This document shows positions 42,581 to 58,160 of a stretch of DNA of 64,000 bases, piece by piece (position 1 is the first letter of the stretch; every line of letters begins with the position of its first letter). The DNA comes from an uncultured Roseiarcus sp. (GTDB lineage: Bacteria > Pseudomonadota > Alphaproteobacteria > Rhizobiales > Beijerinckiaceae). The notes under the pieces were generated by a model, which was not told the DNA's origin, searched no databases, and saw only the letters and a program-made list of their open reading frames with translations. The translations under genes and the position numbers were made by a program. The stretch is taken from the NCBI GenBank assembly GCA_945957375.1, contig CAMFKX010000002.1, positions 3,323 to 67,322 on the forward strand, in the 5' to 3' direction.

Positions 42581-42660
42581 GAGCTGGAGGAGGAAACATG
42601 GTCCTTCATGGCGCACGGCGTCGTCGCCCCTCCGCTTCCGCGAGCGCGTGAGCGGACACG

Positions 42661-43044
42661 ATGGACATTCGCGACTGGGCCATTCGCTTCGCCGACGCCT
42701 CGGACTCCGACCCGGCGATCGGGGCGATGGCGCGCTACTTCACCTGCACGTACCTGTTCGACATGGGCGAGGCGAAGGTCATCGTCGAGATGGTCGACGG
42801 CAAGGTCCATCGCATCAACATCGCTCCCCAGCCGATGGACGCCTACGACTTCGCCCTGCGGGCGAGCGCGCAGACCTGGCGGGAGTTCGCGCGCGCCGTG
42901 CCGCGGCCGATGTTTCACGGCATCTGGGCGGCGAGCTTTCGCGAGGACCTGCGCATCGAGGGCAACACGCTCGCGCTGATGCAGAACCTGCGCAACTTCA
43001 CGCTGCAGTTCGAGCTGCTGCGCAAGGTGGGGGTTCCGGTATGA
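42661..43044 (+). CDS. Small hypothetical protein, possible SCP2-like fold
   Basis: 127 aa with host-like codon usage. The pattern YDFALRASAQTWREF...LRIEGNTLALMQ resembles the ends of SCP2-like domains. Confidence 0.6.
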   Translation: MDIRDWAIRFADASDSDPAIGAMARYFTCTYLFDMGEAKVIVEMVDGKVHRINIAPQPMDAYDFALRASAQTWREFARAVPRPMFHGIWAASFREDLRIEGNTLALMQNLRNFTLQFELLRKVGVPV

Positions 43045-43977: not shown

Positions 43978-44901
43978 ATGAAGATCGTCGAGTTCGATGG
44001 GCGAGGGCAGAAGGTCGAGACCGACAGCCGGTCGGTCGGCGGCGGGCGGCGGAGTTCGCTCGCGCCGCGGCCGAACCTCTCGATCGGCGGCGGCGGCGTC
44101 GGCCGCGCCCGCTCCGACGTCCAGCTCTACATGTTCCAGACCGGGACGCTGAAGACCAAGACCAAGTACATCAAGATGAACCAGGGCGAGGGCGACTTCG
44201 AGATCCCCGTGCCGTGGTATCTGATCAAGCATCCCAAGGGGATCGTGGTCATCGACGGCGGCAACGCGGTCGAGGCGGCGCTCGACAAGCGCGCCCACTG
44301 GGGCGCCGTGGTCGACGCCTACGATCCCATCATGGATCCGCGCGAGAATTGCGTCGACCAGTGCCGCTCGGTCGGCGTCAGGCCCGAGGACGTGCGCTAC
44401 GTCGTGCAGTCGCACCTCCACCTCGACCACACCGGCGCGATCGGACGCTTTCCCCGCGCCGAGCACATCGTGCAGCGGCTGGAATACGAATACGCCTACA
44501 ATCCCGACTGGTTCTCCGCCGGGGCCTACATCCGCGCCGACTTCGACCGCCCGAACCTCAACTGGAAGTTCCTCGGCGGCGAATACACCGACCATTTCGA
44601 TCTGTTCGGCGACGGCGTCGTGCGCATGATCTTCACCCCCGGGCACTCGCCCGGCCATCAGTCGTTTCTGATCACCCTGCCCAACAGCGGGCCGATCCTG
44701 CTCGCCGTCGACGCGGCCTATACGCTCGACCACTGGGAGGACAAGGCGCTGCCGGGGCTCGTCACCTCTTCGGTCGACGCGGTTCATTCCGTCGCCAAGC
44801 TGCGCAAGATCGCCGCCGACACCAAGGCGCTCGTCGTCACCGGCCACGATCCCGATCTGTGGCGCACCTTCCGCAAGGCTCCGAGCGCCTTCTACGACTG
44901 A
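43978..44901 (+). CDS. attM: N-acyl-homoserine lactone / gamma-butyrolactone lactonase, AttM/BlcC family, with N-terminal extension
   Basis: Motifs IKMNQG, EIPVP, IDGGNA, VVQSHLHLDHTGAIGRFP, TPGHSPGHQSFL, DAAYTLDHWEDKALPG and VTGHDP match Agrobacterium AttM as recalled. Confidence 0.9.
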   Translation: MKIVEFDGRGQKVETDSRSVGGGRRSSLAPRPNLSIGGGGVGRARSDVQLYMFQTGTLKTKTKYIKMNQGEGDFEIPVPWYLIKHPKGIVVIDGGNAVEAALDKRAHWGAVVDAYDPIMDPRENCVDQCRSVGVRPEDVRYVVQSHLHLDHTGAIGRFPRAEHIVQRLEYEYAYNPDWFSAGAYIRADFDRPNLNWKFLGGEYTDHFDLFGDGVVRMIFTPGHSPGHQSFLITLPNSGPILLAVDAAYTLDHWEDKALPGLVTSSVDAVHSVAKLRKIAADTKALVVTGHDPDLWRTFRKAPSAFYD

Positions 44902-44961: not shown

Positions 44962-46134
44962 ATGAAAGCCCTGAAAGTCCTGCTACTCGCCGCGACCGCC
45001 AGCCTGGTAGCGCAGGCGACGATGGCCGCCGGCCTCGACGAACTGCCGCCCGACGTCGTCAAGCGCCTCTACAGCAAGGACATGCTCGACCCGGCGCAGC
45101 CGACCGGCGCGAGCGCCTATCGCGACTTCGCCGCCAAGCGCCCGCCGCCGTGGACGATCGGCTACGCCAGCTCCTACGCCGGCAACACCTGGCGCGCCAA
45201 CGCCATGGACCACCTGCTCAAGGAGGTGGTGCCGAAGTGGAAGCAGCTCGGCCTGGTCAAGGACGTGATCATCACCCAGTCGAACCTCAACGATTCGACG
45301 CAGATCCAGCAGATGCGCCAGCTCGTCGACCAAGGCGTCGACGCGATCTTCGTGTGCTGCTCGAACCCGACCGCGCTCAACCAGAGCGTCAAATACGCCT
45401 TCGACAAGGGCGTTCCGGTGTTCTCGTTCACCGGCTACCTGACCTCGCCCTACTCGGTCAATTCTTCGGTCAACTATCAGCTCGCCGGCTACGAGATCGG
45501 CAAGGCGATGGCCGACGAGCTGAAGGGCAAGGGCAACGTCCTCGTGGTCGAGGGCATTCCCGGCACCTCGGCGTCGGACAGCCAGGACCGCGGCGTCAAG
45601 GCGGGGCTCGCGACCGCGCCGGGCGTCAAGATCGTCGGCTCGATCGCCGGCAACTGGACCGACCAGGTCGCGCAGGGCGAAGTGCAGAAGTGGCTCGCCA
45701 CCCACCCCGGCCAGCTCGACGGCATCGTCGTGCAGTCGGCGGCGGAGATGGGCGTGTTGCGCGCCATCGCCCAGTCGGGCCGCAAGGACGTCAAGATCGC
45801 GGTCGGCGGCGAGCTCGGCGCGCTGTGCTCGTGGCGCAAGGATCCGAAGATCATCTCGGCCGCCTATCAGGTCTGGCCGCCCGGCGACGAAATCGAGCTG
45901 ATCTTCGACATCATGATGCGCACCCTCGAGGGCCAGGGCCCGAAGGTGCAGTCGATCCTGGTCGACCCGATCGTGCTGACGATGGACGACGTCAAGGCCA
46001 AGCTCGACGACAAGTGCGACGCGCAGACCGCGTCGTGGTGGGAAGTGGGCCCGAACAAGTGGGGCCAGGATCCGGCTTACCTCAACCAGTTCTTCCTGAG
46101 GCCGGCCGACCCGACCGCCTTCAAGCACAACTGA
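44962..46134 (+). CDS. Sugar-type (RbsB-like) ABC transporter substrate-binding protein
   Basis: Signal peptide, QIQQMRQLVDQGVDAI and VLVVEGIPGTSAS; strong RBS GAGGAGG. Confidence 0.88.
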   Translation: MKALKVLLLAATASLVAQATMAAGLDELPPDVVKRLYSKDMLDPAQPTGASAYRDFAAKRPPPWTIGYASSYAGNTWRANAMDHLLKEVVPKWKQLGLVKDVIITQSNLNDSTQIQQMRQLVDQGVDAIFVCCSNPTALNQSVKYAFDKGVPVFSFTGYLTSPYSVNSSVNYQLAGYEIGKAMADELKGKGNVLVVEGIPGTSASDSQDRGVKAGLATAPGVKIVGSIAGNWTDQVAQGEVQKWLATHPGQLDGIVVQSAAEMGVLRAIAQSGRKDVKIAVGGELGALCSWRKDPKIISAAYQVWPPGDEIELIFDIMMRTLEGQGPKVQSILVDPIVLTMDDVKAKLDDKCDAQTASWWEVGPNKWGQDPAYLNQFFLRPADPTAFKHN

Positions 46135-46208: not shown

Positions 46209-47924
46209 ATGACCGAAGCCGCCTCGCCCATCGTCGTCACCGCCGCCGGCGTCCGAAAGTATTTCGGGCCGACGCGGGCGCTCGACGGCTGCAGCTTCTC
46301 GGCCCGCGCCGGCGAAATCCACGCCATCATCGGCGGCAACGGCTGCGGCAAGAGCACGCTCGCCAAGGTGATCTCGGGCGTCCTGCCGATCGACGGCGGC
46401 AGCTTCTCGGTCCTCGGCGAAGCGCCCTCGACGCCGGCCGAATCGCGCGCCATCGGCATCGCCACCGTCTACCAGGAGGTGCTCGTCGCCGAGGAGAGTT
46501 CGGTCGTCGACAATCTCTACATGGGCGTCGACGGCCTGTTCTCGGCCTCGGTCCCCGCCGCGCAGAAGATCCGCGACGCCGCCGCGATCATGGAGGAGCT
46601 GGCCGGCCAGCCGGTCGACCCGCTCGCGACCGTGGGCGCGCTGCCGCTCGCGATCAAGCAGTGGATCACCATCGGGCGGGCGCTGCTGTCGCGGCCGAAG
46701 GTGCTGATCCTCGACGAATCGTCGGCCGCGCTCGACTTCGACTCGACCCAGCGCCTGTTCGCCAAGATGCGCGAGCTCAGAGCCGCGGGCGCGACGGTGC
46801 TGATCGTCACTCACCGGATCGCCGAGCTGATCTCGATCTCCGATCGCGCGACCGTCATGCGCGACGGCCGCGACGTCGGCATCCTCGAGGGGGAGCAACT
46901 CACCGAAAAGAACCTGATCGCGTTGATGACGGGCGAGGCGCAGGAGGAGGCGCATCCCGAGCGGCGCGCGCCGCGCCCGGCGGGCCGGGAAGTCGTCATG
47001 CGGGCGCACCGGCTGGTCAATGCGCCGGGCTCGGCGCCCTTCGACTTCGAGCTCCTGCGCGGCGAGATCGTCGGCGTCGCCGGCCTCGACGGACAGGGGC
47101 AGAGCGAGTTCGTCCGCCACCTCGCCGGCGTCGCCCATCCGCTCGCGGGCGAGATCTCGGTTCTCTCCCGCAGCGGCGGCTTTCGCCGCATCGACCACCT
47201 CAAGACCGCGGTCAAGGAGCGCGTCGTCTACGTCTCCGGCGACCGCAAGCGCGAGGGCATCTTCGCGGCGCTGTCGATCTTCGAGAACATGACGATCCCG
47301 CTCTACCGCGAGAAGCGGCGGGCGGGCCTCCTCGGCTTCATCGACTGGCCCTCGCTCGCCGCCGTGTTCGCGCGCGAGGCGGCCAATCTCTCGCTCCGCT
47401 TCGGCGAGCGCGACGACAAGATCACCTCGCTCAGCGGCGGCAACCAGCAGAAGGTGCTGATCGGCCGCGGCTTCGCGCTCCGGCCCGACATCATCGTGCT
47501 CAACGACCCGGCGCGCGGCATCGACATCGGCGCCAAGACCGAGCTCTACCGGCAGTTGCGCGCCTTCGCCGAAGCCGGCAAATCGGTCGTCTACATGTCG
47601 AGCGAGCTCGAGGAGTTCATCGGCTTCGCCACCCGGGTGATCGTGTTCCGCGGCGGCCGCCCGTTCGACGCCTTCGCCGGCGACGAGGTCGAGGGCCACG
47701 CGATCCTCGCCGCCATGTTCGGCCAGACGAGCGGCTCGGGCCTGCGCCACGTCGCCGCCGGTCCCGAGGGGCCGCGTCCTTCCGCCGCCGTCCCGGATCC
47801 CCGGCTCGCGCCGCCGCCTGCGCGCGCCTTCGCGCCCGAGACGCCGGCTGCGCCGCCGCGGCCGACGATCAAGATCGTCGAGTTCGGCGCCCGCGGCGAG
47901 GTCGTGCGCAGGAGGAGCGCGTGA
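46209..47924 (+). CDS. Sugar-type ABC ATP-binding protein (RbsA-like, two NBDs) with Pro/Ala-rich C-terminal tail
   Basis: Motifs GGNGCGKST, LILDES, SLSGGNQQK and DPARGIDIGAK. Confidence 0.9.
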   Translation: MTEAASPIVVTAAGVRKYFGPTRALDGCSFSARAGEIHAIIGGNGCGKSTLAKVISGVLPIDGGSFSVLGEAPSTPAESRAIGIATVYQEVLVAEESSVVDNLYMGVDGLFSASVPAAQKIRDAAAIMEELAGQPVDPLATVGALPLAIKQWITIGRALLSRPKVLILDESSAALDFDSTQRLFAKMRELRAAGATVLIVTHRIAELISISDRATVMRDGRDVGILEGEQLTEKNLIALMTGEAQEEAHPERRAPRPAGREVVMRAHRLVNAPGSAPFDFELLRGEIVGVAGLDGQGQSEFVRHLAGVAHPLAGEISVLSRSGGFRRIDHLKTAVKERVVYVSGDRKREGIFAALSIFENMTIPLYREKRRAGLLGFIDWPSLAAVFAREAANLSLRFGERDDKITSLSGGNQQKVLIGRGFALRPDIIVLNDPARGIDIGAKTELYRQLRAFAEAGKSVVYMSSELEEFIGFATRVIVFRGGRPFDAFAGDEVEGHAILAAMFGQTSGSGLRHVAAGPEGPRPSAAVPDPRLAPPPARAFAPETPAAPPRPTIKIVEFGARGEVVRRRSA

Positions 47925-49273
47925 GCGCGGTCCCCGCCGGAGGCCGGGCGCCCGCGGCGATCGCCGGCGCCCGCTCGAGCCCGCATCTGCTGATGCCGAT
48001 GACGCTGCTGTTCGCGCTCCTGATCATCGCGGTGCTGCGTTCGCCGGTGCTCGTCACCAACGCCGGGCTCGGCAGCGCGGTGATCGTGGCCGCGCCGCTG
48101 ATCCTCGCGACCTACGCTCTGATGTCGACGGTGGTGGCGGGCCGCGGCACCGTCGATCTCGCAATCGGGCCGCTGATCAGCTTCATCAACGTGACGCTGA
48201 TCCAGCTCGTCGCCGCCGACGTGATCGGCTCGCCGATCATCGTGTTCGTCTACGCCGTCGCCGTCGGCATGGCCTACCAGCTCCTGATGGCGCTGATCGT
48301 CATCTTCGTCCGCGTCCAGCCGATCATCGTGTCGCTGTCGGGCTTCCTCGCGCTCTCCGGCATCAACCTCGTCATTCTGCCGAGGCCCGGCGGCGTCGCG
48401 CCGGACTGGATGGCGTCGTGGGGCGCGGGGACGTCGGTGTTCTCGCCGGTCATGGCCATCCTCGCGCTCGCCAGCCTCGCCTGGCTGCTCATGACCCGCA
48501 CCGCCTTCTTCACCCATCTGCGCCTGATGGGCTCGGACGAGCGCGCGGCCTACACGAGCGGCATTCCGATCACCCTCGTGCGCATCGGCGCGCATCTCAT
48601 GGCCGGGTTTTTCGCCGGGCTCTCGGCGATTTGCTTCACCGCGCTGATCGGGTCGGGCGACCCGGGGCAGGGCACCACCTACACGCTGCTCGCCGTGACC
48701 GCGCTGGTGCTCGGCGGCGCCTCGCTCGGCGGCGGCCGGGCGAGTCTCGCGGGCTCGCTCATCGGCGCGGTCGACCTCTATCTCATCACCTACGTGCTCT
48801 CGACCTTCTCCTTCGGCGGCATCCAGAGCTTCGTCACCGACCTGTGCTACGGGGCGATCCTGGTCGCCTCGCTCCTCCTCACCCTGACGCTGCCGGTGAT
48901 CCAGCGGACCATCGGCGCCTTCTCGTCGCTGCTCTATTTCGTCGCGCTCGCCATCGTCGCCCTCGGCGTAATCCTCTACTCGACCTGGACCGGCGACGGG
49001 CCGGCTGCGCCGGGCTCGGCCGCCGCGGGCTTCCTCGAGATCGAGGCGCTGCGCGGCGCGGCGAGCGGGGCCGAGCGCGACGGCCGGATCTGGGCGTTCG
49101 TCGGCGTCCTGCTCCTGACCCTGCCGCTGATCGCCCGGACGCTGATCATGGGCGCGTCGCGCCGCGGCATCGGGCCGATCGTCACCATCGTGCTGGCCGG
49201 CGTCGTCCTGCTCGGCGTCTATCTCGCGACCCACGGCGTCGCCAGCGCGCCGCACGGGTTCGCCCGGCCATGA
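47921..49273 (+). CDS. ABC transporter permease (RbsC-like) with C-terminal extra TM segments
   Basis: Motifs DLAIG, GSDERAAYTSGI and ALVLGGASLGGG. About 450 aa; GTG start overlaps the upstream stop. Confidence 0.85.
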   Translation: MSAVPAGGRAPAAIAGARSSPHLLMPMTLLFALLIIAVLRSPVLVTNAGLGSAVIVAAPLILATYALMSTVVAGRGTVDLAIGPLISFINVTLIQLVAADVIGSPIIVFVYAVAVGMAYQLLMALIVIFVRVQPIIVSLSGFLALSGINLVILPRPGGVAPDWMASWGAGTSVFSPVMAILALASLAWLLMTRTAFFTHLRLMGSDERAAYTSGIPITLVRIGAHLMAGFFAGLSAICFTALIGSGDPGQGTTYTLLAVTALVLGGASLGGGRASLAGSLIGAVDLYLITYVLSTFSFGGIQSFVTDLCYGAILVASLLLTLTLPVIQRTIGAFSSLLYFVALAIVALGVILYSTWTGDGPAAPGSAAAGFLEIEALRGAASGAERDGRIWAFVGVLLLTLPLIARTLIMGASRRGIGPIVTIVLAGVVLLGVYLATHGVASAPHGFARP

Positions 49274-50640
49274 GCGTCTCGTCCGCCCCGCCGCCGGCCG
49301 GCACCCTGCTCTCGCGCGTCGTCGGCCTCCTGATCGCGGTCCTGCTCACCGCCGCGAGCGCGGGCGTCGGCGTCTACCAGAACCTGCCGGCGCAGCAGGT
49401 CATCCTCTATTCGGCCGCGACGCTCGCGCTGACCGCCTGGATCTGGCGCTTCTACGTCGTCCAGTTCGGCGTCGGCGCCGGCGGCGAACAGGGGACGGGC
49501 GAGCTGCGCCGCGCCTGGCGGCGCTATCGCCCCGGCATCCTCGGCTTCCTCGCGCTGCTCGCCGTGTTCGTCGCGCTGTCGCTGACGATCGACGGCTTCT
49601 TCAACGTCTGGACCGTCATTTCGGCGCTGATCCTGCTCATGATCATCATCCTGACCATGAGCGTCGGCCGCTTCATGGCGGAGAACCGCAGCGCCTTCAT
49701 CGGCCTCATGGTGCTGATGGGCCTGTTCTCGGTCGGCTCGATGAACATCGAGGGCTTCGCCTCGGCGACCAACATCAAGTCGATGCTGCTGTTCGCCTCG
49801 TTCCTCGGGCTCGCCTCGATCGGCCAGACGCTCGTGGCGCTGCTCGGCGGCCTCGATCTCTCGATCCCCTACGTGATCGGCGCGGCCAACGTCGGGCTCC
49901 TCTATCTCATCAGCCTCGGCGTGCCGCCGTGGCTCACCTTCCTGCTGATCCTGCTTGCGGGCGCCCTGATCGGGATCATCAACGGCGTGCTGAGCCTGCG
50001 CTTGCAGGGACAGGCGCTGATCGTCACGCTCGGCGCCGGCTTCGTCGTCTCCGGCGGCACGCAGATCGTGACCTCGATCGGCTCGGCCTACAGCGGCAAC
50101 GTGTTCGGGACCGTGCCCGAGTGGCTGACCAACCTCTCCTCGATGGCGGGGTCGACCTTCGGCCTGCCGTTCCCGCCGGTGATCGCGATCTGGGGCGCGG
50201 CGGCGATCGTGCTCACGATCGGCCTGCGCCACACCGTCTATGGCCGGTTCCTCTACGCCCTCGGGGTGAACCGCACCTCGGCCGAGCGACTGTTCATCTC
50301 GGAGCGCGCCTATTGGATCTCGGCCTTCGGCCTCAGCGGCTTCTTCTCCGCCTTCACCGGCTGCCTCCTTCTGGGCTGGAGCGGCGGAGGCTTCATCGGC
50401 GTCGGGTCGCAGTACCTCTTCATGACGCTCGCCGCGGTGGTGGTCGGGGGAACCTCGCTGCTCGGCGGGGTCGGCGGCTACGGCTTCACGGTGATCGGCG
50501 TCCTCGTCCTGCAGGTGCTGACCTCGTTCCTCGTCGGCATCGGGCTCAAGTTCGAGTGGCAGCAGTTCATCTTCGGGCTCCTGATCCTGCCGATGGTCGC
50601 CCTCTACGCGCGCTCGCCGCACATCCGAACCCAGATCTAG
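49270..50640 (+). CDS. ABC transporter permease (RbsC-like) with N-terminal extra TM segments
   Basis: Motifs GQTLVALLGGLDLS, GRFLYALGVN and AAVVVGGTSLLGG. About 456 aa. Confidence 0.85.
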   Translation: MSVSSAPPPAGTLLSRVVGLLIAVLLTAASAGVGVYQNLPAQQVILYSAATLALTAWIWRFYVVQFGVGAGGEQGTGELRRAWRRYRPGILGFLALLAVFVALSLTIDGFFNVWTVISALILLMIIILTMSVGRFMAENRSAFIGLMVLMGLFSVGSMNIEGFASATNIKSMLLFASFLGLASIGQTLVALLGGLDLSIPYVIGAANVGLLYLISLGVPPWLTFLLILLAGALIGIINGVLSLRLQGQALIVTLGAGFVVSGGTQIVTSIGSAYSGNVFGTVPEWLTNLSSMAGSTFGLPFPPVIAIWGAAAIVLTIGLRHTVYGRFLYALGVNRTSAERLFISERAYWISAFGLSGFFSAFTGCLLLGWSGGGFIGVGSQYLFMTLAAVVVGGTSLLGGVGGYGFTVIGVLVLQVLTSFLVGIGLKFEWQQFIFGLLILPMVALYARSPHIRTQI

Positions 50641-50682: not shown

Positions 50683-51393
50683 GTGAATGCGATGATCGAT
50701 CCCCAGGACCTGACCGGCGCCAGCTATTCGGCCGTGCTCTATGCGCTCGTCGGCGCGACCGCGTTCCTGCTCCTCGGCGTGAGCTGGGTCGGGCGCGCTT
50801 GGAAGCTCGTGGTCGCGCTCGCCGCGGTCGCGACGCTGGTCGGCGCTTGCCAGGCCTGGGATTCGCGCAGCGCGTGGCTCGCGGCGAAGAGCGTCTCGGT
50901 CGCCTACCCCTACGCCGGCTGGATCATCTCGATGCCGGTCCAGGTGGTGACCCTGTTCTTCCTCGCCGCGCGCGGCGGCAAGGTCTCGCAGGCGCTGTTC
51001 TGGCGGCTCGCCGCCGTGTCGATCCTGATGGTGCTCGTCCGCTATCTCGGCGACGCCAAGCTGATGGTCCCGACCCTCAGCTTCCTGATCGGCGTCGCGC
51101 TCTGGCTGTACATCCTCGGCGAGCTCTACTTCGGCCAGATGGACGAGGCGGTCGCGACCAGCAGCGACGACGCCCTGAAGCGCGGCTATTTCTGGCTGCG
51201 CACCGTCGTCACCGTCGGCTGGGCGATCTATCCGCTCGGCAGTTTCATCGTGAGCTTCACCAGCGCCGTCGACGACGGCCGGCTGAGCCTCACCTACAAT
51301 CTCGCCGAGTTCGTCAACCTGATCGCGTTCGGCCTCGCGGTGCTCGCCACCGCAATGGTGAGCGCGGACGGCGACCGCAAGGCCGCGGCCTGA
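50683..51393 (+). CDS. Proteorhodopsin-like 7-TM protein lacking the retinal-binding lysine (Rh-noK, FArhodopsin-like)
   Basis: Seven hydrophobic helices. WK after helix A; helix C YPYAGWIISMP (PR: YRYIDWLLTVP); ILM..RYLGD (PR: VM..GYLGE); VTVGWAIYPLG (helix F, near-identical to PR); YNLAEFVNLIAFG (PR: YNLADFVNKILFG). Confidence 0.88.
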   Translation: MNAMIDPQDLTGASYSAVLYALVGATAFLLLGVSWVGRAWKLVVALAAVATLVGACQAWDSRSAWLAAKSVSVAYPYAGWIISMPVQVVTLFFLAARGGKVSQALFWRLAAVSILMVLVRYLGDAKLMVPTLSFLIGVALWLYILGELYFGQMDEAVATSSDDALKRGYFWLRTVVTVGWAIYPLGSFIVSFTSAVDDGRLSLTYNLAEFVNLIAFGLAVLATAMVSADGDRKAAA

Positions 51394-51444: not shown

Positions 51445-53118
51445 ATGAACGGCGCCGACATCATCGCGGTCATCATCCTGGCGGCCATCGTCATCGCGAT
51501 CCTCGCCTATCTCCTGCACTGGCTCTATCGCCGGTCGACCAAGGACGTCTCGTTCGTCCGGACCGGCCTCGGCGGCGAGAAGGTGATCATGGGCGGCGGT
51601 GCCTTCATCCTGCCGATCGTCCACGACCTGACCGAAGTCAGCATGAACACTTTGCGGCTGCAGGTGACGCGCGCCCGCGAAAAATCGCTGATCACCAAGG
51701 ACCGCATGCGCATCGAGCTCGAAGTCGAGTTCTATGTCCGCGTCGTGCCGAACGCGGCCGAGGTCGCGACCGCGGCGCGCACGCTCGGCCGGCGCACCAT
51801 GGATCCCGAGAAGCTGCGCGAACTGGTGCAGGGCCGCTTCGTCGACGCGATGGGCGCCGTCGCCGCCTCGATGACGCTCGAGGAGATGCACGAGCGGCGC
51901 GACCGCTTCATCGCCGGCGTCAAGGCGGAGGTTGTCAAGAACCTCGGGCAGAACGGCCTCGAACTCGAGGCGGTGTCGCTCGTTTCGCTCGACCAGGCCG
52001 ACATGAAGCTCTTCAACCCGGCCAACGCCTTCGACGCCGAGGGCCTCACCCGCCTCACCGAGGAGATCGAGTCGCGCAAGAAGAAGCGCAACGACATCGA
52101 GCAGGACACGATGATCGCGATCCGCAACAAGAATCTCGAGGCCGAGAAGATGGCGCTCGAGATCGCGCGCGAGAGCGAGTACGCGCGCCTCGCGCAGGAG
52201 GGCGAGATCGCCGTGCGGCGCGCGCAGCAGGCGGCCGAGGTCGAGCGCGAGCGCGCGGCGCGCGAGCGCGACATCGAGGCGGCCAAGATCGAGGAGCGCG
52301 AGCAGGTCGAGCGCATCCGCATCGCCATGGAGCGTCAGCTCGAGGCGCTCGAGATCAGCCGGATCGAGGCGCGCGAGATCGCCGAGCAGGCGCGCGAGAT
52401 CGCGGTGGCGGAAAAGTCGCAGGAGCGCTCCCGCAGCCAGACCGCGGCGGAAGAGGCGCGCAAGGCGCTGCTCGAGGCGCAGGAAGGCGTCGAGACCGCG
52501 CGCGAGACGGCGGTGGCGAACCGCAGGCGCGAGATCGACCTGATCGCGGCGAGGCGTCAGGCCGAGGTCGAGGCGGTCAGGGTCACGATCTCGGCGGAAG
52601 CCGAGAAGGCCGCCGCCGCCGACCGCGCCGAGGCCGACCGCATCGCCGTCGCGGCGCTGAAGGAGCGCTCCGCGGTCGAGGCGGAGGCGAAGCGCGCCGT
52701 GAACGAGGCGGAGAACCTGCGTTCCGACGCGAGCCGCCGCAGCGCTCTGCACCAGAAGCTCGTCGAGGCGCTGCCGTCGATCATCCGCGAGAGCGTCAAG
52801 CCGATGGAGCGCATCGAAGGCATCAAGATTCTCCACGTCGAGGGTCTGCCCGGCCTGTCGAGCCCGGGCGCGGCGGGCGGCGGCGGCGACAGCGGCGGAG
52901 GCGCGCCGTCTGCGCCTCGGGACGGCAATCTCGCCGAGGAGGTGGTCAGCTCGGCGCTGCGCTACCGGGCGCAGGCGCCGTTCGTCGACACGCTGCTCGG
53001 CGAAATCGGCCTCAACTCGGCCGACATCCATCGCACGCAGCCGCTGCAGAACCTGTCGAAGATCGTCTACTCGCAGACGAACGAACCGGATCGCGGACCC
53101 GAGCGCGGCGGCCGGTGA
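51445..53118 (+). CDS. Flotillin-family (SPFH/band 7) membrane scaffold protein
   Basis: N-terminal TM, FVRTGLGGEKV, ITKDRMR..VEFYVRV, SLDQ, FNPANAFDAEGLT and a long E/A/R coiled coil. GGAG RBS lies before ATG 51445. Confidence 0.92.
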   Translation: MNGADIIAVIILAAIVIAILAYLLHWLYRRSTKDVSFVRTGLGGEKVIMGGGAFILPIVHDLTEVSMNTLRLQVTRAREKSLITKDRMRIELEVEFYVRVVPNAAEVATAARTLGRRTMDPEKLRELVQGRFVDAMGAVAASMTLEEMHERRDRFIAGVKAEVVKNLGQNGLELEAVSLVSLDQADMKLFNPANAFDAEGLTRLTEEIESRKKKRNDIEQDTMIAIRNKNLEAEKMALEIARESEYARLAQEGEIAVRRAQQAAEVERERAARERDIEAAKIEEREQVERIRIAMERQLEALEISRIEAREIAEQAREIAVAEKSQERSRSQTAAEEARKALLEAQEGVETARETAVANRRREIDLIAARRQAEVEAVRVTISAEAEKAAAADRAEADRIAVAALKERSAVEAEAKRAVNEAENLRSDASRRSALHQKLVEALPSIIRESVKPMERIEGIKILHVEGLPGLSSPGAAGGGGDSGGGAPSAPRDGNLAEEVVSSALRYRAQAPFVDTLLGEIGLNSADIHRTQPLQNLSKIVYSQTNEPDRGPERGGR

Positions 53119-53162: not shown

Positions 53163-53582
53163 GTGGACACTGACCGGTATGTCGAGCACGGGATCGCCGT
53201 CTTCGCCGCCTGGGGCGTGTTCGGCGCGATCGCCGTCGGCTTCCTGATGGAGGGGATTTCGCGCGAAGCCTACCTGCTGTCGCTCGTGGGCGTCGCGGCG
53301 GCGATCGCCGGCTTCGTCGCCCACCTGCTCGTCAACGCCTGGTTCGGGCTGACGTTCTCGCGCGCCGAGGGCGGGCTCGGGCTCGCGGCGCTCGGTCTCG
53401 TGACGCTGGTGTTCACCGTGTCGTGGCTCGCGAGCGGGCTCGCCCAGACGACGGTCTGGACCGGCCTGACGCTGATCGCCGCGCTGATCGCGACCGCCTT
53501 CCTCTATCTCGCCACCCGCTTCGGGGTGAGAGGCGCGTTCTCGCAATATCACGGGCGACGCGAAGGCGGCGGGCGGCGATGA
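53163..53582 (+). CDS. Small 4-TM membrane protein of unknown function
   Basis: Four hydrophobic helices; GAGGA RBS; its stop overlaps the next start. Confidence 0.75.
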   Translation: MDTDRYVEHGIAVFAAWGVFGAIAVGFLMEGISREAYLLSLVGVAAAIAGFVAHLLVNAWFGLTFSRAEGGLGLAALGLVTLVFTVSWLASGLAQTTVWTGLTLIAALIATAFLYLATRFGVRGAFSQYHGRREGGGRR

Positions 53583-55519
53583 ACCTCACCGCGGCCCAGA
53601 TCTGGCTCATCGCGTTCGGGACGGCCTATGTGGCCGCGACCTCGTTCTGGGCCCGCCAGTGCTCGCTGCGGGAAAAGGGGGCGCGCCGCTACCTCTCGGC
53701 GACGGGCGAGCTTCCCGGCTGGATCGTCGCGCTCGCGCTGGCCGCGGTGAGCCTCTCGGCGTGGTTCGCGCTGGGACTGCCGGACGCCGTCGCGCGCGAC
53801 GGATTTTCCGGCGCGGGGCTTGCGCTCGCCACCATCCCGATGGCGCTGGTCGGGGTCGCGACCTTCAAGCGGCAGTGGCAGACCGCGCGCCGCTTCGGCG
53901 CGCGCAGCCAGGCGCAGCTGCTCGCCTTCTACTACCGCTCGCGCGGCTTCGCGTGGCTCTCCGGGGGACTCGCGGCCCTGTTCGCGGTCGCCTTCGCCGC
54001 GCTCCAGCTCGCCGTGCTCGGCAGGCTGATGGCGGATCTCTCCGGCGGCGGCATCGCCCCGGAGCCGGCCACGTGGCTCCTCAGCCTCATGACCTTCTCC
54101 TACGTGATCGTCGGCGGGTTCTACGCCGCCGGGGCGCTCGGCGCCCTGCAATGCGTCTTGCTCGCGGGCGGCGTCGTCGGACTCGCGATCGCGGCCGGCG
54201 AGCTCGGCGGCGGCTTCGCCGCGATCAATTTCGCGCTCGGGAAGCTCGCCGAAGTCCCGGCCAACGCCCATCTCTTCCAGGTGTCGGGCGTCGTCCGCTT
54301 CGTCGCCGGCGCCGACGACGGCGGCGGCTGGACCGCCGCGCTGGTGCTCTCGACCGCGCTCGCGCTCGCGGGCGTGCAGGCGAGCCCGATCGCGACCCAG
54401 CTCCTGCTCTCGGCGCGCGACGACCGTGCGGTCGCGGCCGGCCAGACTTGGGTGCTCGCGGCCTTCTTCGGCGGCCTGTGCGCGTTCGGCCTCGTGCTCG
54501 TCGGCGCCTGGGGCATGGCGTTCGCGTCGAAGGATGCGGTCGGGGACCTGCTCGCCCGGCTCGGCGCCGGCTCGCCATGGTTCATGGCGGCGATTTATTT
54601 CGGGCTGGTCGCCGGCTTCCAGGCGCTCGCCGCGGTGAGCGTCCTGACCGCCGCGCGCGGGCTCGTGCGCGACATCTTCGTGCCCGACTTCATGCCCGAC
54701 CTTTCCGGAGAGACCGCGAACCTGATCGGGCGCGTCGCGGTCGGCCTGCTGATGCTCGTGAGCGTCCTCCTCGCGACGCGCGCGCCCGCCGCCACAGTGT
54801 CGCTCGGCGCGCTCGCGCTCCCTTTCGCCGCGCAGATGCTTCCGGCGCTCGTGGGCCTGTGCTGGCTGCGCTGGATCATGCCTCCTGCGGCCCTCGTCGG
54901 CGCCGTCGTCGGCCTCGCGGTCGTGGCGCTGACCGACAGTTTCGGCCTGGCGCTCATGGATTTCGTCGGCCTGCACCTGCCCTGGGGCCGCTGGCCGTGG
55001 ACGATCCACTCCGCCGGCTGGGGTCTCGCCGCCAACGCCGCGACGATCCTGGTCATCACCGCGATCGCCCCGGCGCGCCGGGCGAGCCAGCGGGCGGCGA
55101 CCCTCGACGAGTTCTTCGCCGGGCTCGGCGCGCCGCGGCCGCCCGCCCGCGGCGTCAGTTCGGCGGCCTGGTCGGCGGCGCTCGCCTGGCTGTTCGCCGG
55201 CGTGGGGCCGGGGCTCCTGTTCGGCAATTTCGCCTTCGGGCAGAGCGGCGGCGGCTTCGGCGGGTGGCTGCTCGGCATGCCGCCGTTGTGGGCGTGGTGC
55301 CTGCTGATGTGGTCGCTCGGCGTCATTCTCGTCTGGCTCGTCGCCTACCGGCTTCGGCTCGCGACCCCGGCGGGCGTCGAGATCCCGCCGATCGAAAGCG
55401 GTCCGGAAGGCCGGAAGCGCGCCGCCGGCCTTCGCGTTGACCATCTTGAGGCGCTTCTTTGGGCCCTCAGCGGCGCCGGGGCGCTGATTACCGCCGCGGC
55501 GTGGACCTTCGGACACTGA
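53579..55519 (+). CDS. Divergent sodium:solute symporter (SSS) family protein
   Basis: About 13-15 TM segments. SSS-like N-terminal pattern YLSATGELPGW..A..AVSLSAWFALGLP..VARDG, plus KRQW..ARRFG and WPWTIHSAGWG. Confidence 0.7.
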   Translation: MNLTAAQIWLIAFGTAYVAATSFWARQCSLREKGARRYLSATGELPGWIVALALAAVSLSAWFALGLPDAVARDGFSGAGLALATIPMALVGVATFKRQWQTARRFGARSQAQLLAFYYRSRGFAWLSGGLAALFAVAFAALQLAVLGRLMADLSGGGIAPEPATWLLSLMTFSYVIVGGFYAAGALGALQCVLLAGGVVGLAIAAGELGGGFAAINFALGKLAEVPANAHLFQVSGVVRFVAGADDGGGWTAALVLSTALALAGVQASPIATQLLLSARDDRAVAAGQTWVLAAFFGGLCAFGLVLVGAWGMAFASKDAVGDLLARLGAGSPWFMAAIYFGLVAGFQALAAVSVLTAARGLVRDIFVPDFMPDLSGETANLIGRVAVGLLMLVSVLLATRAPAATVSLGALALPFAAQMLPALVGLCWLRWIMPPAALVGAVVGLAVVALTDSFGLALMDFVGLHLPWGRWPWTIHSAGWGLAANAATILVITAIAPARRASQRAATLDEFFAGLGAPRPPARGVSSAAWSAALAWLFAGVGPGLLFGNFAFGQSGGGFGGWLLGMPPLWAWCLLMWSLGVILVWLVAYRLRLATPAGVEIPPIESGPEGRKRAAGLRVDHLEALLWALSGAGALITAAAWTFGH

Positions 55520-55539: not shown

Positions 55540-56697
55540 ATGAACCCCTTCACCTTCAACACAAGCGCCGGCATCCAGTTCGGGGCGGGGGCGATCGCCC
55601 GGATCGGCGCGCTGGCGCGCGAGCGGCTGGGCCCGCGCGTGCTCCTCGTCACCGACCCCGGCATGGTGGCGACCGGCATGGTCGACCGGGTGATGGGCCT
55701 GCTCGCGGAAGCCTGCGTCGCGGCGGAAGTCTTCGCCGACGTCGTCGCCGACCCGCCGGCCCAGATGATCCTGACCGCCGTCGAGAAAGCGACCGCGGCC
55801 GGGACGACCGGCGTGCTCGGCTTTGGCGGCGGCTCCTCGCTCGACACGGCGAAGCTCGTCGCCCTGCTCGCGCCGGGCCGCCAACAGCTCGCCGACGTGT
55901 TCGGGGTCGGCAACGCCAAAGGGCCCCGGCTGCCGATGATCCTGGTGCCGACGACCTCCGGAACGGGGTCCGAGGTGACGCCGATCTCGATCGTCACCAC
56001 CGGCGAGAACGAGAAGATGGGCGTCGTCTCGCCGGTCATCCTGCCCGACGTCGCCCTGCTCGACCCGGAGCTGACGCTCGGCCTGCCGCCCCACGTCACC
56101 GCCGCGACCGGAATCGACGCGATGGTGCACGCCATCGAGGCCTATGCCTCGCGCAACGCCAACGCCAATCCGGTCTCGCGCGCGCTCGCCAAGGAGGCGC
56201 TGGCGCTCCTCGGCGGCGCGATCGAGACTGCGGTCCATGACGGCGCCAACCTCGAGGCGCGCTCGGCCATGCTGCTCGGCTCGATGCTCGCCGGCCAGGC
56301 CTTCGCCAATTCGCCGGTCGCCGCGGTGCACGCGCTCGCCTATCCGCTCGGCGGCCATTTCCACATTCCCCACGGCCTCTCGAACGCGCTGGTGCTGCCG
56401 CACGTGCTGCGCTTCAACTGCAAGACCGCTCCCGACGCATACGTCGACATCGCGCCGATCGCCTTTCCGGACCTCGCGCGGCTCGAGGGGCAGGCGCGGG
56501 CGGAGGCCTTCTGCGACGCGCTCGAGGCCCTGTCGCAGCGCTGCAACCTGCCGCCGCGCCTGCGCGACGCCGGGGTCCCGGAAGCCATCCTGCCGACGCT
56601 GGCGCGCGACGCCATGAAGCAGACGCGCCTGTTGCCGAACAATCCGCGCCCCGTGACAGAGCCGGACGCGCTCGAGATCTATCGGCGCGCTTTCTAA
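55540..56697 (+). CDS. Iron-containing alcohol dehydrogenase, 4-hydroxybutyrate dehydrogenase (BlcB/AttL)-like
   Basis: Motifs GGGSSLDTAK, PTTSGTGSEVT, GIDAMVHAIE, VHALAYPLG and PHGLSNA. Confidence 0.88.
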   Translation: MNPFTFNTSAGIQFGAGAIARIGALARERLGPRVLLVTDPGMVATGMVDRVMGLLAEACVAAEVFADVVADPPAQMILTAVEKATAAGTTGVLGFGGGSSLDTAKLVALLAPGRQQLADVFGVGNAKGPRLPMILVPTTSGTGSEVTPISIVTTGENEKMGVVSPVILPDVALLDPELTLGLPPHVTAATGIDAMVHAIEAYASRNANANPVSRALAKEALALLGGAIETAVHDGANLEARSAMLLGSMLAGQAFANSPVAAVHALAYPLGGHFHIPHGLSNALVLPHVLRFNCKTAPDAYVDIAPIAFPDLARLEGQARAEAFCDALEALSQRCNLPPRLRDAGVPEAILPTLARDAMKQTRLLPNNPRPVTEPDALEIYRRAF

Positions 56698-56711: not shown

Positions 56712-58160
56712 ATGCTGAACCTCAACGATCCGTCGCTGCTCGTCTCCGACGCGTACATCGACGGCCAGTGGATCAAGGCCGAACGGCGGTCACAAGTCCG
56801 CAATCCGGCCAATGGCCAGATCGTCGCCGAAGTCGCCGACGTCGGGGTCGCGGGCGCCCGCGCCGCGATCGACGCGGCCGAGCGCGCGCAGCCGGAATGG
56901 GCGGCGCGCACCGCGCGCGACCGGTCGAACATTCTTCTCGAATGGAACCGGCTGATGCTCGCCAATGTCGAGGATCTCGCCCGCATCCTGACCGCGGAAA
57001 TGGGCAAGCCGCTCGCCGAGGCGAGGGGGGAGATCGCCTATGGCGCGAGCTTCATCGAGTGGTTCGCTCAGGAAGGCCGGCGGGTCTACGGGGACACCAT
57101 CCCCGGCCACCAGCCCGACAAGCGCATTCTCGTCATGAAGCAGCCGATCGGGGTCGCAGCGTCGATCACGCCATGGAACTTCCCGAACGCGATGATCGCG
57201 CGCAAGGTCGGCCCGGCGCTCGCCGCCGGCTGCGCCTTCGTCGCCCGCCCCGCCGAACTGACGCCGCTCTCGGCGCTGGCGATGGCCGTGCTCGGCGAAC
57301 GCGCGGGAATCCCGAAGGGCGTGCTCAACGTCGTCACCAGTCACGATTCCGCCGGCGTCGGTCTAGAATTCTGCACGAACCCGAAAGTGCGCAAAATTTC
57401 GTTCACCGGGTCGACGCGGGTCGGCTCGATCCTGATGCGCCAGAGCGCCGACGGGATCAAGAAGCTGAGCCTCGAACTCGGCGGCAACGCGCCGTTCATC
57501 GTGTTCGACGACGCCGACCTCGACAAGGCGGTCGAAGGCGCGATGATCGCCAAATTCCGCAACGCCGGGCAGACCTGCGTGTGCGCCAACCGGATCTACG
57601 TGCAGCGCGGCGTCCATGACGCGTTCGCGGCGAAACTCGCCGCCGCCGTCGGACGGCTGAAAGTCGGCGACGGCGCGGAGGCCGGCGTGCAGATCGGCCC
57701 GCTGATCGAGAGGGCGGCGCTCGACAAGGTCGAGAGCCATGTCGCCGACGCTCTCGCCAAGGGGGCGAAAGTCGCGACCGGCGGGCGCCGGCACGCGGCG
57801 GGCGACCTGTTCTACGAGCCGACCGTTCTGACCAACGCGACCGCCGACATGCTGCTCGCGCGCGAGGAGACGTTCGGTCCCGTCGCGCCGCTGTTTCCCT
57901 TCGACACGGTCGAGGAGGCGATCGCGCTCGCCAACGACACGGAGTTCGGCCTCGCCTCCTACTTCTACGCCCGCGATCTCAGCCGGGTGTGGAAGGTCGC
58001 GGAGGCGCTCGAATACGGGATGGTCGGCGTCAACACCGGGCTCGTGTCCACGGCGGAGGCGCCGTTCGGCGGCGTCAAGATGTCGGGCCTCGGACGGGAA
58101 GGGTCGAAATACGGGATCGACGAGTATCTGACGCTGAAATACGTCTGCCTGTCGATCTGA
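56712..58160 (+). CDS. gabD: NAD(P)-dependent succinate-semialdehyde dehydrogenase (GabD/BlcA-like)
   Basis: Motifs ITPWNFP, ISFTGST, LELGGNAP, KFRNAGQTCVCANR, EETFGP and GREGSKYG. Confidence 0.9.
   Translation: MLNLNDPSLLVSDAYIDGQWIKAERRSQVRNPANGQIVAEVADVGVAGARAAIDAAERAQPEWAARTARDRSNILLEWNRLMLANVEDLARILTAEMGKPLAEARGEIAYGASFIEWFAQEGRRVYGDTIPGHQPDKRILVMKQPIGVAASITPWNFPNAMIARKVGPALAAGCAFVARPAELTPLSALAMAVLGERAGIPKGVLNVVTSHDSAGVGLEFCTNPKVRKISFTGSTRVGSILMRQSADGIKKLSLELGGNAPFIVFDDADLDKAVEGAMIAKFRNAGQTCVCANRIYVQRGVHDAFAAKLAAAVGRLKVGDGAEAGVQIGPLIERAALDKVESHVADALAKGAKVATGGRRHAAGDLFYEPTVLTNATADMLLAREETFGPVAPLFPFDTVEEAIALANDTEFGLASYFYARDLSRVWKVAEALEYGMVGVNTGLVSTAEAPFGGVKMSGLGREGSKYGIDEYLTLKYVCLSI

What the first reader, a model, noticed from the sequence alone, without database searches (positions are those of the whole stretch)
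50683..51393. Retinal-less proteorhodopsin homolog: Schiff-base Lys replaced by Leu and the whole proton pathway lost
Seen in the sequence: the 236-aa ORF aligns by eye with proteorhodopsin (PR) along helices C-G. The lysine in DFVNK is Leu213 (codon CTG, 51319-51321). The second counterion Asp is Glu. The DTE motif is G79/S83/T90, the R94 equivalent is Pro76, and no His is evident in helix B. Established: this Lys is required for covalent retinal binding, and Lys-less rhodopsins, including flotillin-associated ones, have been reported with unknown function. Inference: several coordinated substitutions in an intact, host-adapted gene point to repurposing rather than decay. It may be a small-molecule sensor or channel, for example for a lactone or short acid, rather than a light-driven pump. 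No retinal synthesis genes occur in the window.
Basis: partly seen in the sequence, partly recalled or inferred. Interest (0 to 1): 0.9.

Follow-up and report, generated by a model that had tools for sequence, protein, structure and literature searches.

The report
Lysine-less flotillin-associated rhodopsin homolog
This gene encodes a rhodopsin-fold membrane protein that has lost the retinal-binding lysine and sits next to a flotillin gene; it belongs to a family described in 2023 (FArhodopsins), here found in a large soil-type alphaproteobacterial genome inside a lactone-breakdown operon.

Summary
ORF 50683-51393 (+) is a proteorhodopsin-family protein with Leu213 (CTG 51319-51321) in place of the Schiff-base Lys. 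It also has G79/S83/T90, P76, E209 and no helix-B His.

It is not a new kind. Its best sequence and fold match is the solved flotillin-associated rhodopsin PsFAR (9R21; E 1e-41, TM 0.93). A flotillin gene follows 51 nt downstream. It nests (100/100) in the Lys-less FArhodopsin clade reported from freshwater metagenomes in 2023.

Loss of the Lys is clade-wide. Of 120 homologs, 111 have Arg, 7 Leu and none Lys. dN/dS is 0.10-0.21.

New here:
- The host is a 5.6-Mb Roseiarcus-like Hyphomicrobiales genome, and cultured relatives carry the same cluster.
- This is the only rhodopsin in the genome, and there is no blh. That argues against the published idea that FArhodopsins assist a proteorhodopsin.
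- The gene lies in a conserved 14-gene IclR-controlled unit: AttM lactonase, Fe-ADH, SSADH, an ABC importer and an SSF-like symporter. This unit is orthologous to the SAR11 FAR cluster.

Most likely function, inferred rather than shown: a retinal-free 7TM partner of flotillin that organises the co-encoded transporters.

The parts
41703..42599 (-). Divergent IclR-family regulator (BlcR-like position)
   Evidence: Pfam HTH_IclR + IclR_C. An IclR gene holds the same position in Rhizobium sp. Leaf391 and Zhengella mangrovi.
42661..43044 (+). 127-aa SCP2-like protein, first gene of the operon
   Evidence: No Pfam hit. It is 63% identical to the SAR11 FAR-cluster protein that InterPro calls SCP2 sterol-binding (Table S2 of PMC10308929).
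43087..43938 (+). Alpha/beta hydrolase (PcaD-like enol-lactonase superfamily)
   Evidence: Abhydrolase_1, E 6e-22. The best NCBIfam hit, 3-oxoadipate enol-lactonase, is far below its cut-off. It is 79% identical to the SAR11 FAR-cluster hydrolase.
43978..44901 (+). AttM/BlcC-family metallo-beta-lactamase-fold lactonase
   Evidence: NCBIfam NF045700 AttM equivalog, 444.7 bits against a cut-off of 390. It is 63% identical to the SAR11 cluster MBL.
44962..46134 (+). Periplasmic substrate-binding protein (Peripla_BP_4)
   Evidence: Pfam E 7e-40.
46209..47924 (+). ABC transporter ATPase (two ABC domains)
   Evidence: ABC_tran in 2 stretches. The start codon was chosen.
47993..49273 (+). ABC permease 1 (BPD_transp_2)
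   Evidence: Pfam.
49270..50640 (+). ABC permease 2 (BPD_transp_2), overlaps permease 1 by 4 nt
   Evidence: Pfam. A permease lies immediately upstream of the rhodopsin in every Hyphomicrobiales locus examined.
50683..51393 (+). Lys-less flotillin-associated rhodopsin (FArhodopsin), 236 aa, GTG start
51319..51321 (+). Codon CTG = Leu213 at the Schiff-base lysine position
   Evidence: Read; aligned. Orthologs carry CTG (Leu) or CGC (Arg).
51445..53118 (+). Flotillin (N-terminal membrane anchor, SPFH/Band_7, Flot C-terminal domain)
   Evidence: Flot E 2.7e-33 and Band_7 E 1.6e-14. It is 56-59% identical to SAR11 FAR-cluster flotillin. The ATG at 51445 has a GGAG 8 nt upstream and matches the SAR11 N-terminus.
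53163..53582 (+). 139-aa hydrophobic membrane protein, ATGA-overlapped with the next gene
   Evidence: No family hit. It is syntenic in all close loci. The overlap is shown.
53579..55519 (+). Divergent sodium:solute-symporter-family (SSF-like) transporter
   Evidence: Pfam SSF E 1.4e-8. It is 24% identical to the SAR11 cluster SSF.
55540..56697 (+). Iron-containing alcohol dehydrogenase (AttL/BlcB-like position)
   Evidence: Fe-ADH + ADH_Fe_C. It is 57% identical to the SAR11 cluster Fe-ADH. All NCBIfam equivalog hits, including 4-hydroxybutyrate dehydrogenase, are below their cut-offs.
56712..58160 (+). Succinate-semialdehyde dehydrogenase (AttK/BlcA-like), last gene
   Evidence: TIGR01780 SSADH, 708 bits against a cut-off of 646.

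Best explanation
The ORF is a member of the Lys-less branch of the flotillin-associated rhodopsins (FArhodopsins). It keeps the seven-helix proteorhodopsin fold, cannot form a retinal Schiff base, and works independently of light.

It is made together with the flotillin encoded 51 nt downstream. It most likely serves as the flotillin's polytopic membrane partner. The pair would organise or stabilise a membrane patch holding the transporters encoded on either side: an ABC importer upstream, and a small membrane protein plus an SSF-like symporter downstream.

All of this sits in one IclR-controlled operon whose enzymes form a blc/att-type lactone to hydroxy-acid to succinic semialdehyde to succinate route (AttM-family lactonase, Fe-ADH, SSADH).

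Shown: family membership, loss of Lys and of the proton-relay residues, purifying selection, strict linkage to flotillin and to the transporters and enzymes, and the absence of any other rhodopsin or of blh. Inferred: no chromophore, physical partnership with flotillin, and a role in organising transport.
For: Identity:
- Best PDB sequence hit is PsFAR 9r21, E 1e-41.
- The AF2 model (pLDDT 90.8, pTM 0.88) matches 9r21 best (TM 0.93).
- In the ML tree the FAR clade has 98/97 support, the Lys-less subclade 100/100, and the L213 Roseiarcus subclade 99/95 nested among R213 sequences.

Selection:
- dN/dS is 0.10-0.21.
- 53 positions are invariant across 50 homologs.
- R120 is invariant in 120/120 and G79 occurs in 119/120.

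No chromophore:
- No Lys in 120 homologs.
- R120 and M84 sit at the two positions (E120, H84) whose side chains block retinal in PsFAR.
- No blh in this genome or in 7 other carriers, with a positive control.

Linkage:
- Flotillin lies directly downstream in all 15 loci inspected, at 29-88% FAR identity.
- The 13-gene operon plus IclR is syntenic in Roseiarcus fermentans, Rhizobium sp. Leaf391, Zhengella mangrovi and several MAGs.
- The SAR11 FAR-cluster proteins are orthologous: hydrolase 79%, SCP2-like 63%, lactonase 63%, Fe-ADH 57%, flotillin 56-59%.

Pathway:
- The AttM equivalog and the SSADH family are both above cut-off.
- blcABC converts GBL to succinate via GHB and SSA under the repressor BlcR (PMC3907764).

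Scaffold-like behaviour: FAR and SSF diverge far faster (29% and 24% identity) than the enzymes. Position 213 changed at least three times (L, Q, V). Residue 209 is D/E in all 111 R213 sequences, but A or G in 5 of the 9 sequences without a basic residue at 213. This is what one expects if the former Schiff-base site is only a structural ion pair.
Against: - No experiment and no co-folding shows a FAR-flotillin contact. The PsFAR structure paper found no obvious surface adaptation for flotillin.
- I could not inspect the model's coordinates, so pocket occlusion by R120 and M84 is inferred from alignment only. M84 is not aromatic, whereas that paper states that aromatic residues are conserved at this position in FARs.
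- An invariant buried Arg (R120) without an obvious partner could indicate a ligand site rather than filler.
- This genome has a second flotillin paralog (49% identity), so the FAR-linked flotillin is not the cell's only one.
- Co-transcription is inferred from spacing and from the lack of above-chance terminators, not from RNA data.
Confidence: 0.55

Rival explanations
1. The protein is a chemoreceptive or transport-facilitating opsin. The former retinal pocket, with the clade-invariant buried Arg120, binds a carboxylate or lactone handled by the operon (for example a hydroxy-acid, a fatty-acid-like molecule or succinic semialdehyde). Binding regulates or assists the neighbouring transporters. 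This is.
For: - R120 is invariant in 120/120, and also in the other Lys-less clades (P0124, L012, L014).
- Retinal-free proteoopsin binds decanoate in the retinal pocket, with the carboxylate on the Schiff-base Lys (PDB 8cnk; PMC11322631).
- The operon encodes lactone and hydroxy-acid enzymes and an SCP2-like carrier.
Against: - In PsFAR the equivalent pocket is fragmented and water-filled.
- Position 213, which contacts the carboxylate in proteoopsin, is freely exchanged (R/L/Q/V) in this clade.
- No transducer or signalling domain is conserved in the cluster.
- FAR sequence diverges much faster than the enzymes that would define the ligand.
Confidence: 0.22
2. The protein is an accessory subunit that forms hetero-oligomers with a bona fide proteorhodopsin and tunes it for dim light. 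This is the hypothesis offered for marine FArhodopsins.
For: Proposed in PMC10308929, because marine carriers always had a second, pumping proteorhodopsin.
Against: - This 96%-complete genome has only one Bac_rhodopsin hit.
- Seven other carriers, including the isolates R. fermentans and Z. mangrovi, also have one.
- All 11 carriers of this clade among 401 genomes of the order have a single copy.
- No blh is present.
Confidence: 0.02
3. The protein is a photoreceptor that uses a non-covalently bound retinal or carotenoid-derived chromophore.
For: - PMC10308929 leaves open binding of other carotenoid derivatives.
- Several pocket aromatics (W80, W180, Y183, P184) are conserved.
- Roseiarcus is a pigmented bacteriochlorophyll-containing genus (my own knowledge, not tested here).
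Against: - There is no Schiff-base Lys or counterion D79.
- Bulky R120 and M84 occupy the positions that exclude retinal in PsFAR.
- No blh is present.
- Carriers include non-phototrophic Rhizobium-type isolates.
Confidence: 0.05
4. The gene is a decaying pseudogene or an assembly or sequencing error at codon 213.
For: None beyond the unusual residues. Raw reads could not be consulted.
Against: - The frame is intact and GC3 is 0.94.
- dN/dS is 0.10-0.21.
- The identical CTG codon occurs in R. fermentans and in MAG L004.
- The clade holds hundreds of members (758 hits at E<=1e-5).
Confidence: 0.01

Closest known systems
PsFAR, flotillin-associated rhodopsin of Pseudothioglobus (PDB 9R21; Kovalev et al., bioRxiv 10.1101/2025.04.29.651185)
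   Same: Best sequence and fold match (36% identity, TM 0.93). Same length with a gap-free alignment over residues 1-226. A long helix G runs to the C-terminus (model helix 200-235). Flotillin gene lies downstream. Retinal-free. No helix-B His and no Glu proton donor.
   Different: PsFAR keeps K213, D79, R76 and D209 and blocks the pocket with H84 and E120. The window protein has L213, G79, P76 and E209, with M84 and R120 at the blocking positions. The PsFAR host is a streamlined marine gammaproteobacterium with a proteorhodopsin paralog. This host has 5.6 Mb and no other rhodopsin.
Lys-less 'freshwater' FArhodopsins (Haro-Moreno et al. 2023, mSystems, PMC10308929)
   Same: Same clade logic: FAR branch, flotillin adjacent, helix-G Lys replaced by Q, T, L or R, and parts of the FAR cluster preserved.
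   Different: Those were short metagenomic contigs without taxonomy, whole genomes or isolates. Here the host is a Roseiarcus-like Hyphomicrobiales genome. Cultured carriers are identified (R. fermentans DSM 24875, Rhizobium sp. Leaf391 and BK313, Zhengella mangrovi, Gellertiella hungarica, Metarhizobium album). The rhodopsin count per genome and the full operon are also known.
Green/blue proteorhodopsin proton pumps (e.g. 7B03, 4JQ6, PsPR 9R22)
   Same: Same fold and family (29-34% identity). Conserved W80, W180, Y183, P184, N212 and R108.
   Different: All functional residues are replaced: K to L, D97-equivalent to G, T to S, E108-equivalent to T, R94-equivalent to P, H75-equivalent to Q. 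No retinal pathway is present.
Rh-noK (lysine-less xanthorhodopsin-like proteins) and retinal-free haloarchaeal opsins
   Same: Type-1 rhodopsin folds that have naturally lost the Schiff-base lysine.
   Different: Rh-noK belongs to a different rhodopsin subfamily. It sits in tandem with a functional pump and regains pumping when Lys is restored (as summarised in PMC10308929). The FAR clade has additional pocket and relay changes, no partner pump, and a flotillin partner.
Agrobacterium blcR / blcABC (attJ / attKLM) gamma-butyrolactone catabolic operon
   Same: An IclR-type regulator is divergent from genes for an AttM-family lactonase, an iron alcohol dehydrogenase and a succinate-semialdehyde dehydrogenase.
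   Different: The Agrobacterium operon has three genes. Here the same three enzyme types bracket ten extra genes: SCP2-like protein, alpha/beta hydrolase, ABC importer, FAR, flotillin, small membrane protein and SSF-like symporter. The actual substrate is unknown.
NfeD-SPFH/flotillin gene pairs (e.g. B. subtilis yuaF-floT)
   Same: A membrane protein gene lies immediately upstream of, and is co-transcribed with, a flotillin/SPFH gene (my own knowledge of these operons).
   Different: The upstream partner here is a seven-helix opsin, not an NfeD protein. No NfeD domain was detected in the cluster.

Membership tests
Flotillin-associated rhodopsins (FArhodopsins) | Proteorhodopsin-family seven-helix fold | tested here: met
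   Pfam PF01036 E 2e-16. The AF2 model has seven TM helices and pLDDT 90.8. TM is 0.93 to 9r21 and 0.87-0.89 to proteorhodopsins.
Flotillin-associated rhodopsins (FArhodopsins) | Falls in the FAR clade, separate from pumping proteorhodopsins | tested here: met
   In the ML tree (LG+C20) PsFAR, SAR11 FAR and the window protein share a clade with 98/97 support, distinct from the DTE/K proteorhodopsins.
Flotillin-associated rhodopsins (FArhodopsins) | Flotillin gene immediately downstream on the same strand | tested here: met
   Flot + Band_7 protein at 51445-53118, 51 nt after the stop. The same arrangement holds in 14 related loci.
Flotillin-associated rhodopsins (FArhodopsins) | Conserved FAR gene cluster (SCP2-like, alpha/beta hydrolase, MBL lactonase, SSF symporter, Fe-ADH) | tested here: met
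   BLASTP against the SAR11 AG-390-L03 cluster proteins from Table S2 gives 63%, 79%, 63%, 24% and 57% identity.
Flotillin-associated rhodopsins (FArhodopsins) | Retinal pocket occluded (bulky or aromatic residue at position 84 plus a bulky residue at 120 or 137) and no retinal binding | tested here: inconclusive
   By alignment the window has M84 (not aromatic), R120 (invariant in the clade) and G137.
Flotillin-associated rhodopsins (FArhodopsins) | Co-occurs with a bona fide proteorhodopsin in a streamlined aquatic genome (a property of the marine members, not of the Lys-less branch) | tested here: not met
   There is a single Bac_rhodopsin in a 5.6-Mb genome. The same holds in 7 other carriers and in 11 of 11 clade carriers in the order survey.
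Retinal-binding type-1 rhodopsins (light-driven pumps, channels, sensors) | Schiff-base lysine in helix G | tested here: not met
   L213, codon CTG at 51319-51321. There is no Lys in 120 homologs.
Retinal-binding type-1 rhodopsins (light-driven pumps, channels, sensors) | Counterion / proton acceptor and donor (DTE motif) and access to retinal (blh) | tested here: not met
   G79/S83/T90. There is no PF15461 hit in the genome, with a positive control in relatives.
blc/att-type lactone catabolic operon | AttM/BlcC-family lactonase | tested here: met
   NF045700 equivalog, 444.7 bits against a cut-off of 390.
blc/att-type lactone catabolic operon | Succinate-semialdehyde dehydrogenase | tested here: met
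   TIGR01780, 708.3 bits against a cut-off of 646.
blc/att-type lactone catabolic operon | 4-hydroxybutyrate dehydrogenase (Fe-ADH) and a BlcR-type IclR repressor responding to GBL/GHB/SSA | tested here: inconclusive
   The Fe-ADH fold is clear, but every NCBIfam equivalog is below cut-off (4-hydroxybutyrate DH 250 against 500). The IclR family is clear, but no BlcR-specific model was available.

The most novel reading that the evidence does not exclude
The FAR-flotillin pair, with the ATGA-coupled small membrane protein and the divergent SSF-like symporter (plus the ABC importer in Hyphomicrobiales), forms a dedicated light-independent membrane module. In it an ex-rhodopsin acts as a ligand-binding or gating subunit for uptake of a lactone or hydroxy-acid class of substrates, using the invariant buried Arg120. 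That would be an opsin turned chemoreceptor or transport cofactor. Because cultured Rhizobium and Roseiarcus strains carry the cluster, this could be tested genetically.
Probability: 0.2. Interest if true: 0.75.

Novelty: new member of a known kind. Interest (0 to 1): 0.4.

Why it matters
The function of FArhodopsins is unknown. So far they have been studied only in uncultured, streamlined plankton. The main published idea is that they assist a co-resident proteorhodopsin in dim light.

This locus shows that the same rhodopsin-flotillin cluster lives in large-genome Hyphomicrobiales, and several carriers are culturable strains. In these genomes it is the only rhodopsin and there is no retinal synthesis gene. 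That makes the light-assistant idea unlikely for this branch.

The locus also ties the pair to a defined, inducible catabolic operon (AttM lactonase, Fe-ADH, SSADH, two transporters). This gives a concrete growth and induction phenotype to test in genetically tractable bacteria.

Tried and rejected
- Pocket inspection failed. The AF2 model's coordinates are not exposed to the Python box, so occlusion by R120 and M84 rests on alignment to PsFAR.
- Table S4 of PMC10308929 (their Lys-less alignment) is stored only for the first ~47 columns. I could not check whether near-identical sequences were in their set.
- I looked for an NfeD-type partner beside the second flotillin paralog on contig C34. 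None was evident and the contig ends shortly after.
- The terminator and promoter scan of the operon gave nothing above chance.
- NCBIfam gave no family for the rhodopsin, the 127-aa protein, the 139-aa protein or the SSF-like protein.
- The pseudogene and one-off-mutation readings were rejected on dN/dS and clade-wide conservation.
- The proteorhodopsin-partner hypothesis was rejected for this clade on genome-wide searches.

Full report
**1. The observation**

The ORF at 50683-51393 (+) is real. It has 236 codons and a GTG start. GC3 is 0.94 in a 69.5% GC window.

It scores 60.6 bits (E 2e-16) on Pfam Bac_rhodopsin against a gathering cut-off of 24.6. Against PDB sequences the best hit is the flotillin-associated rhodopsin PsFAR (9r21, E 1e-41), aligned without gaps over residues 1-226. 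Next come its paralog PsPR and the blue and green proteorhodopsins, at 1e-33 to 1e-27.

In that alignment PsFAR YNLTDFLNKIIFG pairs with YNLAEFVNLIAFG. The Schiff-base Lys is Leu213, codon CTG at 51319-51321.

The other residues, numbered as in PsFAR, are P76 (Arg in PR), G79 (Asp), S83 (Thr), T90 (Glu in PR), Q57 (His in PR) and E209 (Asp).

**2. It is a flotillin-associated rhodopsin**

- The next gene is a flotillin with an N-terminal membrane anchor (Flot E 2.7e-33, Band_7 E 1.6e-14). I place its start at the ATG at 51445, 51 nt after the rhodopsin stop.
- An AlphaFold2 model built from 50 homologs is confident (pLDDT 90.8, pTM 0.88). It has seven helices and a long helix G reaching the C-terminus. 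Its best structural match is PsFAR (TM 0.93), ahead of proteorhodopsins at 0.85-0.89.
- In a maximum-likelihood tree of 53 full-length relatives the FAR clade has 98/97 support. It splits into a Lys-containing marine group (PsFAR, SAR11 FAR) and a Lys-less group with 100/100 support. The window protein, the Roseiarcus fermentans protein and one MAG protein form an L213 subclade (99/95) nested among R213 sequences.

**3. This kind is already described**

Haro-Moreno et al. 2023 (PMC10308929) defined FArhodopsins. They reported that most freshwater members lack the helix-G lysine and carry Q, T, L or R there. They also reported that long-enough contigs always carry flotillin next door.

Kovalev et al. 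2025 (bioRxiv 10.1101/2025.04.29.651185) showed that PsFAR binds no retinal. H84 and E120 fill the pocket, and only the double mutant regains pigment.

The window protein has M84 and R120 at those positions. R120 is invariant in 120 of 120 homologs, and G79 is present in 119 of 120.

**4. Not a one-off, not decay**

- The search for homologous proteins returned 758 relatives at E<=1e-5.
- Among the best 120, position 213 is Arg in 111, Leu in 7, Gln in 1, Val in 1, and never Lys.
- Leu codons are CTG and Arg codons CGC in the orthologs.
- Pairwise dN/dS among the window and four orthologs (77-88% identity) is 0.10-0.21.
- Whenever 213 is Arg, 209 is Asp or Glu (111/111). When 213 is L, Q or V, residue 209 is Ala or Gly in 5 of 9 cases. 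This suggests an Arg213-Asp209 ion pair stands in for the Schiff base and its counterion, and that the pair is dispensable. I read the former active site as structural filling rather than a conserved ligand contact. This is inference.

**5. Genomic setting**

Pfam and NCBIfam annotation and start-codon refinement give one divergent IclR regulator followed by 13 co-directional genes:

1. SCP2-like 127-aa protein
2. Alpha/beta hydrolase
3. AttM/BlcC-family lactonase (equivalog, 444.7 bits against a cut-off of 390)
4. Peripla_BP_4 binding protein
5. ABC ATPase
6. ABC permease 1
7. ABC permease 2
8. FAR
9. Flotillin
10. 139-aa membrane protein
11. SSF-like symporter, ATGA-overlapped with the 139-aa gene
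12. Fe-ADH
13. Succinate-semialdehyde dehydrogenase (TIGR01780, 708 bits against a cut-off of 646)

The lactonase, Fe-ADH, SSADH and IclR set is the composition of the Agrobacterium blcR/blcABC gamma-butyrolactone pathway (PMC3907764).

The whole unit is syntenic, with changing flanks, in these genomes:
- Roseiarcus fermentans DSM 24875 (neighbouring proteins 82-98% identical)
- Four MAGs
- Rhizobium sp. Leaf391
- Zhengella mangrovi
- A Rhodobiaceae MAG

The proteins of the SAR11 FAR cluster (Table S2 of the 2023 paper) are clear orthologs despite a GC difference of about 40 points. Identities are hydrolase 79%, SCP2-like 63%, lactonase 63%, Fe-ADH 57%, flotillin 56-59%, FAR only 29% and SSF 24%. 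No paper in the searchable library links rhodopsin, flotillin and lactonase.

**6. What the whole genome adds**

The window lies in a 5.6-Mb, 96%-complete assembly. This gene is its only Bac_rhodopsin hit, and blh is absent.

Seven other carriers also have a single rhodopsin and no blh. They include the R. fermentans (6.8 Mb) and Z. mangrovi (5.1 Mb) genomes.

The blh search is validated by relatives G031 and G037, where blh lies beside true rhodopsins.

In an even sample of 401 genomes of the order, 11 carry this clade (above 340 bits), in at least 7 families, and each has a single copy. Within the window's own genus, rhodopsin-family genes occur in 5 of 37 species. The cluster is therefore a sporadic accessory island.

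These facts contradict, for this branch, the published suggestion that FArhodopsins complement a co-resident proteorhodopsin. One caveat: lack of blh alone would not exclude retinal scavenging (PMC11322631). It is the missing Lys and counterion that do.

**7. Mechanism**

The elements found with FAR in every clade examined are flotillin and an SSF-like transporter. In Hyphomicrobiales an ABC permease also lies immediately upstream.

My best reading (0.55) is that FAR is a retinal-free seven-helix partner of flotillin, and that the pair organises a membrane patch for the operon's transporters. By homology with PsFAR it is probably pentameric; this is not tested.

The main rival (0.22) is that invariant R120 marks a carboxylate or lactone site. 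This is encouraged by decanoate bound in retinal-free proteoopsin (8cnk). Three points weaken it:
- The fragmented pocket of PsFAR.
- The lability of position 213.
- The rapid divergence of FAR relative to the enzymes.

A photoreceptor with a non-covalent chromophore (0.05), a proteorhodopsin accessory subunit (0.02) and a pseudogene (0.01) are unlikely.

**8. Verdict**

The gene is a new member of a known kind.

Its value lies in host range (large genomes and culturable strains), in the absence of a partner pump, and in the blc-like operon context that makes FArhodopsin function testable. Interest 0.4.

Noticed in passing
L013:5973-6671 (-), genome G089 (5.25 Mb, single contig): A Lys-containing, PsFAR-like FArhodopsin (H84, E120, K213; YNLAEFLNKIIFG) sits in a large Hyphomicrobiales genome. 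Its neighbours run permease-permease-FAR-flotillin-SCP2-hydrolase-MBL-SSF, and it is the only rhodopsin hit in that genome. So the marine type is not confined to streamlined plankton or to genomes with a proteorhodopsin.
   Followed up: partly
L012:6248-6937 (-) and L014:6090-6779 (-): A second, separate Lys-less (Leu) FAR type with R120 occurs in Rhodoligotrophos defluvii and Pseudoxanthobacter sp. M-2 (names). It is about 40% identical to the window protein. The cluster is rearranged, with SCP2 and the hydrolase placed before the permeases.
   Followed up: partly
window 43087-43938: The alpha/beta hydrolase is 79% identical to its SAR11 counterpart and 83-98% identical among Hyphomicrobiales. 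It is far more conserved than the FAR (29%) or the SSF (24%). This is an unusually constrained enzyme of unknown substrate and may hold the key to the cluster's chemistry.
   Followed up: no
genome contig C34:26410-28464 (outside the window): A second flotillin paralog (49% identical) follows two ABC ATPase genes. Unlike the marine SAGs in the 2023 paper, the FAR-linked flotillin is not the only flotillin in this genome.
   Followed up: partly
relative genome G031, contig C83:217-6362: A species of the same genus carries a strong retinal-type rhodopsin hit (E 1e-37) with blh about 5 kb away. The genus therefore contains both true rhodopsin/blh carriers and FAR carriers.
   Followed up: no
L003:10001-10702: The MAG ortholog (82% identity) has Ala at position 209 as well as Leu at 213. 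Both former Schiff-base partners are gone in an otherwise conserved protein.
   Followed up: partly
window 53579-53582: The 139-aa membrane protein and the SSF-like transporter overlap by ATGA. The pair (small hydrophobic protein plus symporter) is conserved in all close loci and in the P0124 clade (153-aa protein after flotillin).
   Followed up: partly
window 58312-63990 (-): Convergent with the operon are an acyl-CoA ligase, a 1080-aa biotin carboxylase/BCCP/carboxyltransferase fusion and a TetR regulator. The SAR11 and HIMB59 FAR clusters also contain biotin-dependent carboxylase genes according to the 2023 paper. I did not test whether this is more than coincidence.
   Followed up: no
window 43981-43995 and 47871-47885: An earlier first-reader note (e1-5233638) reports the same short peptide at the lactonase N-terminus and the ABC ATPase C-terminus. 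I did not examine it.
   Followed up: no
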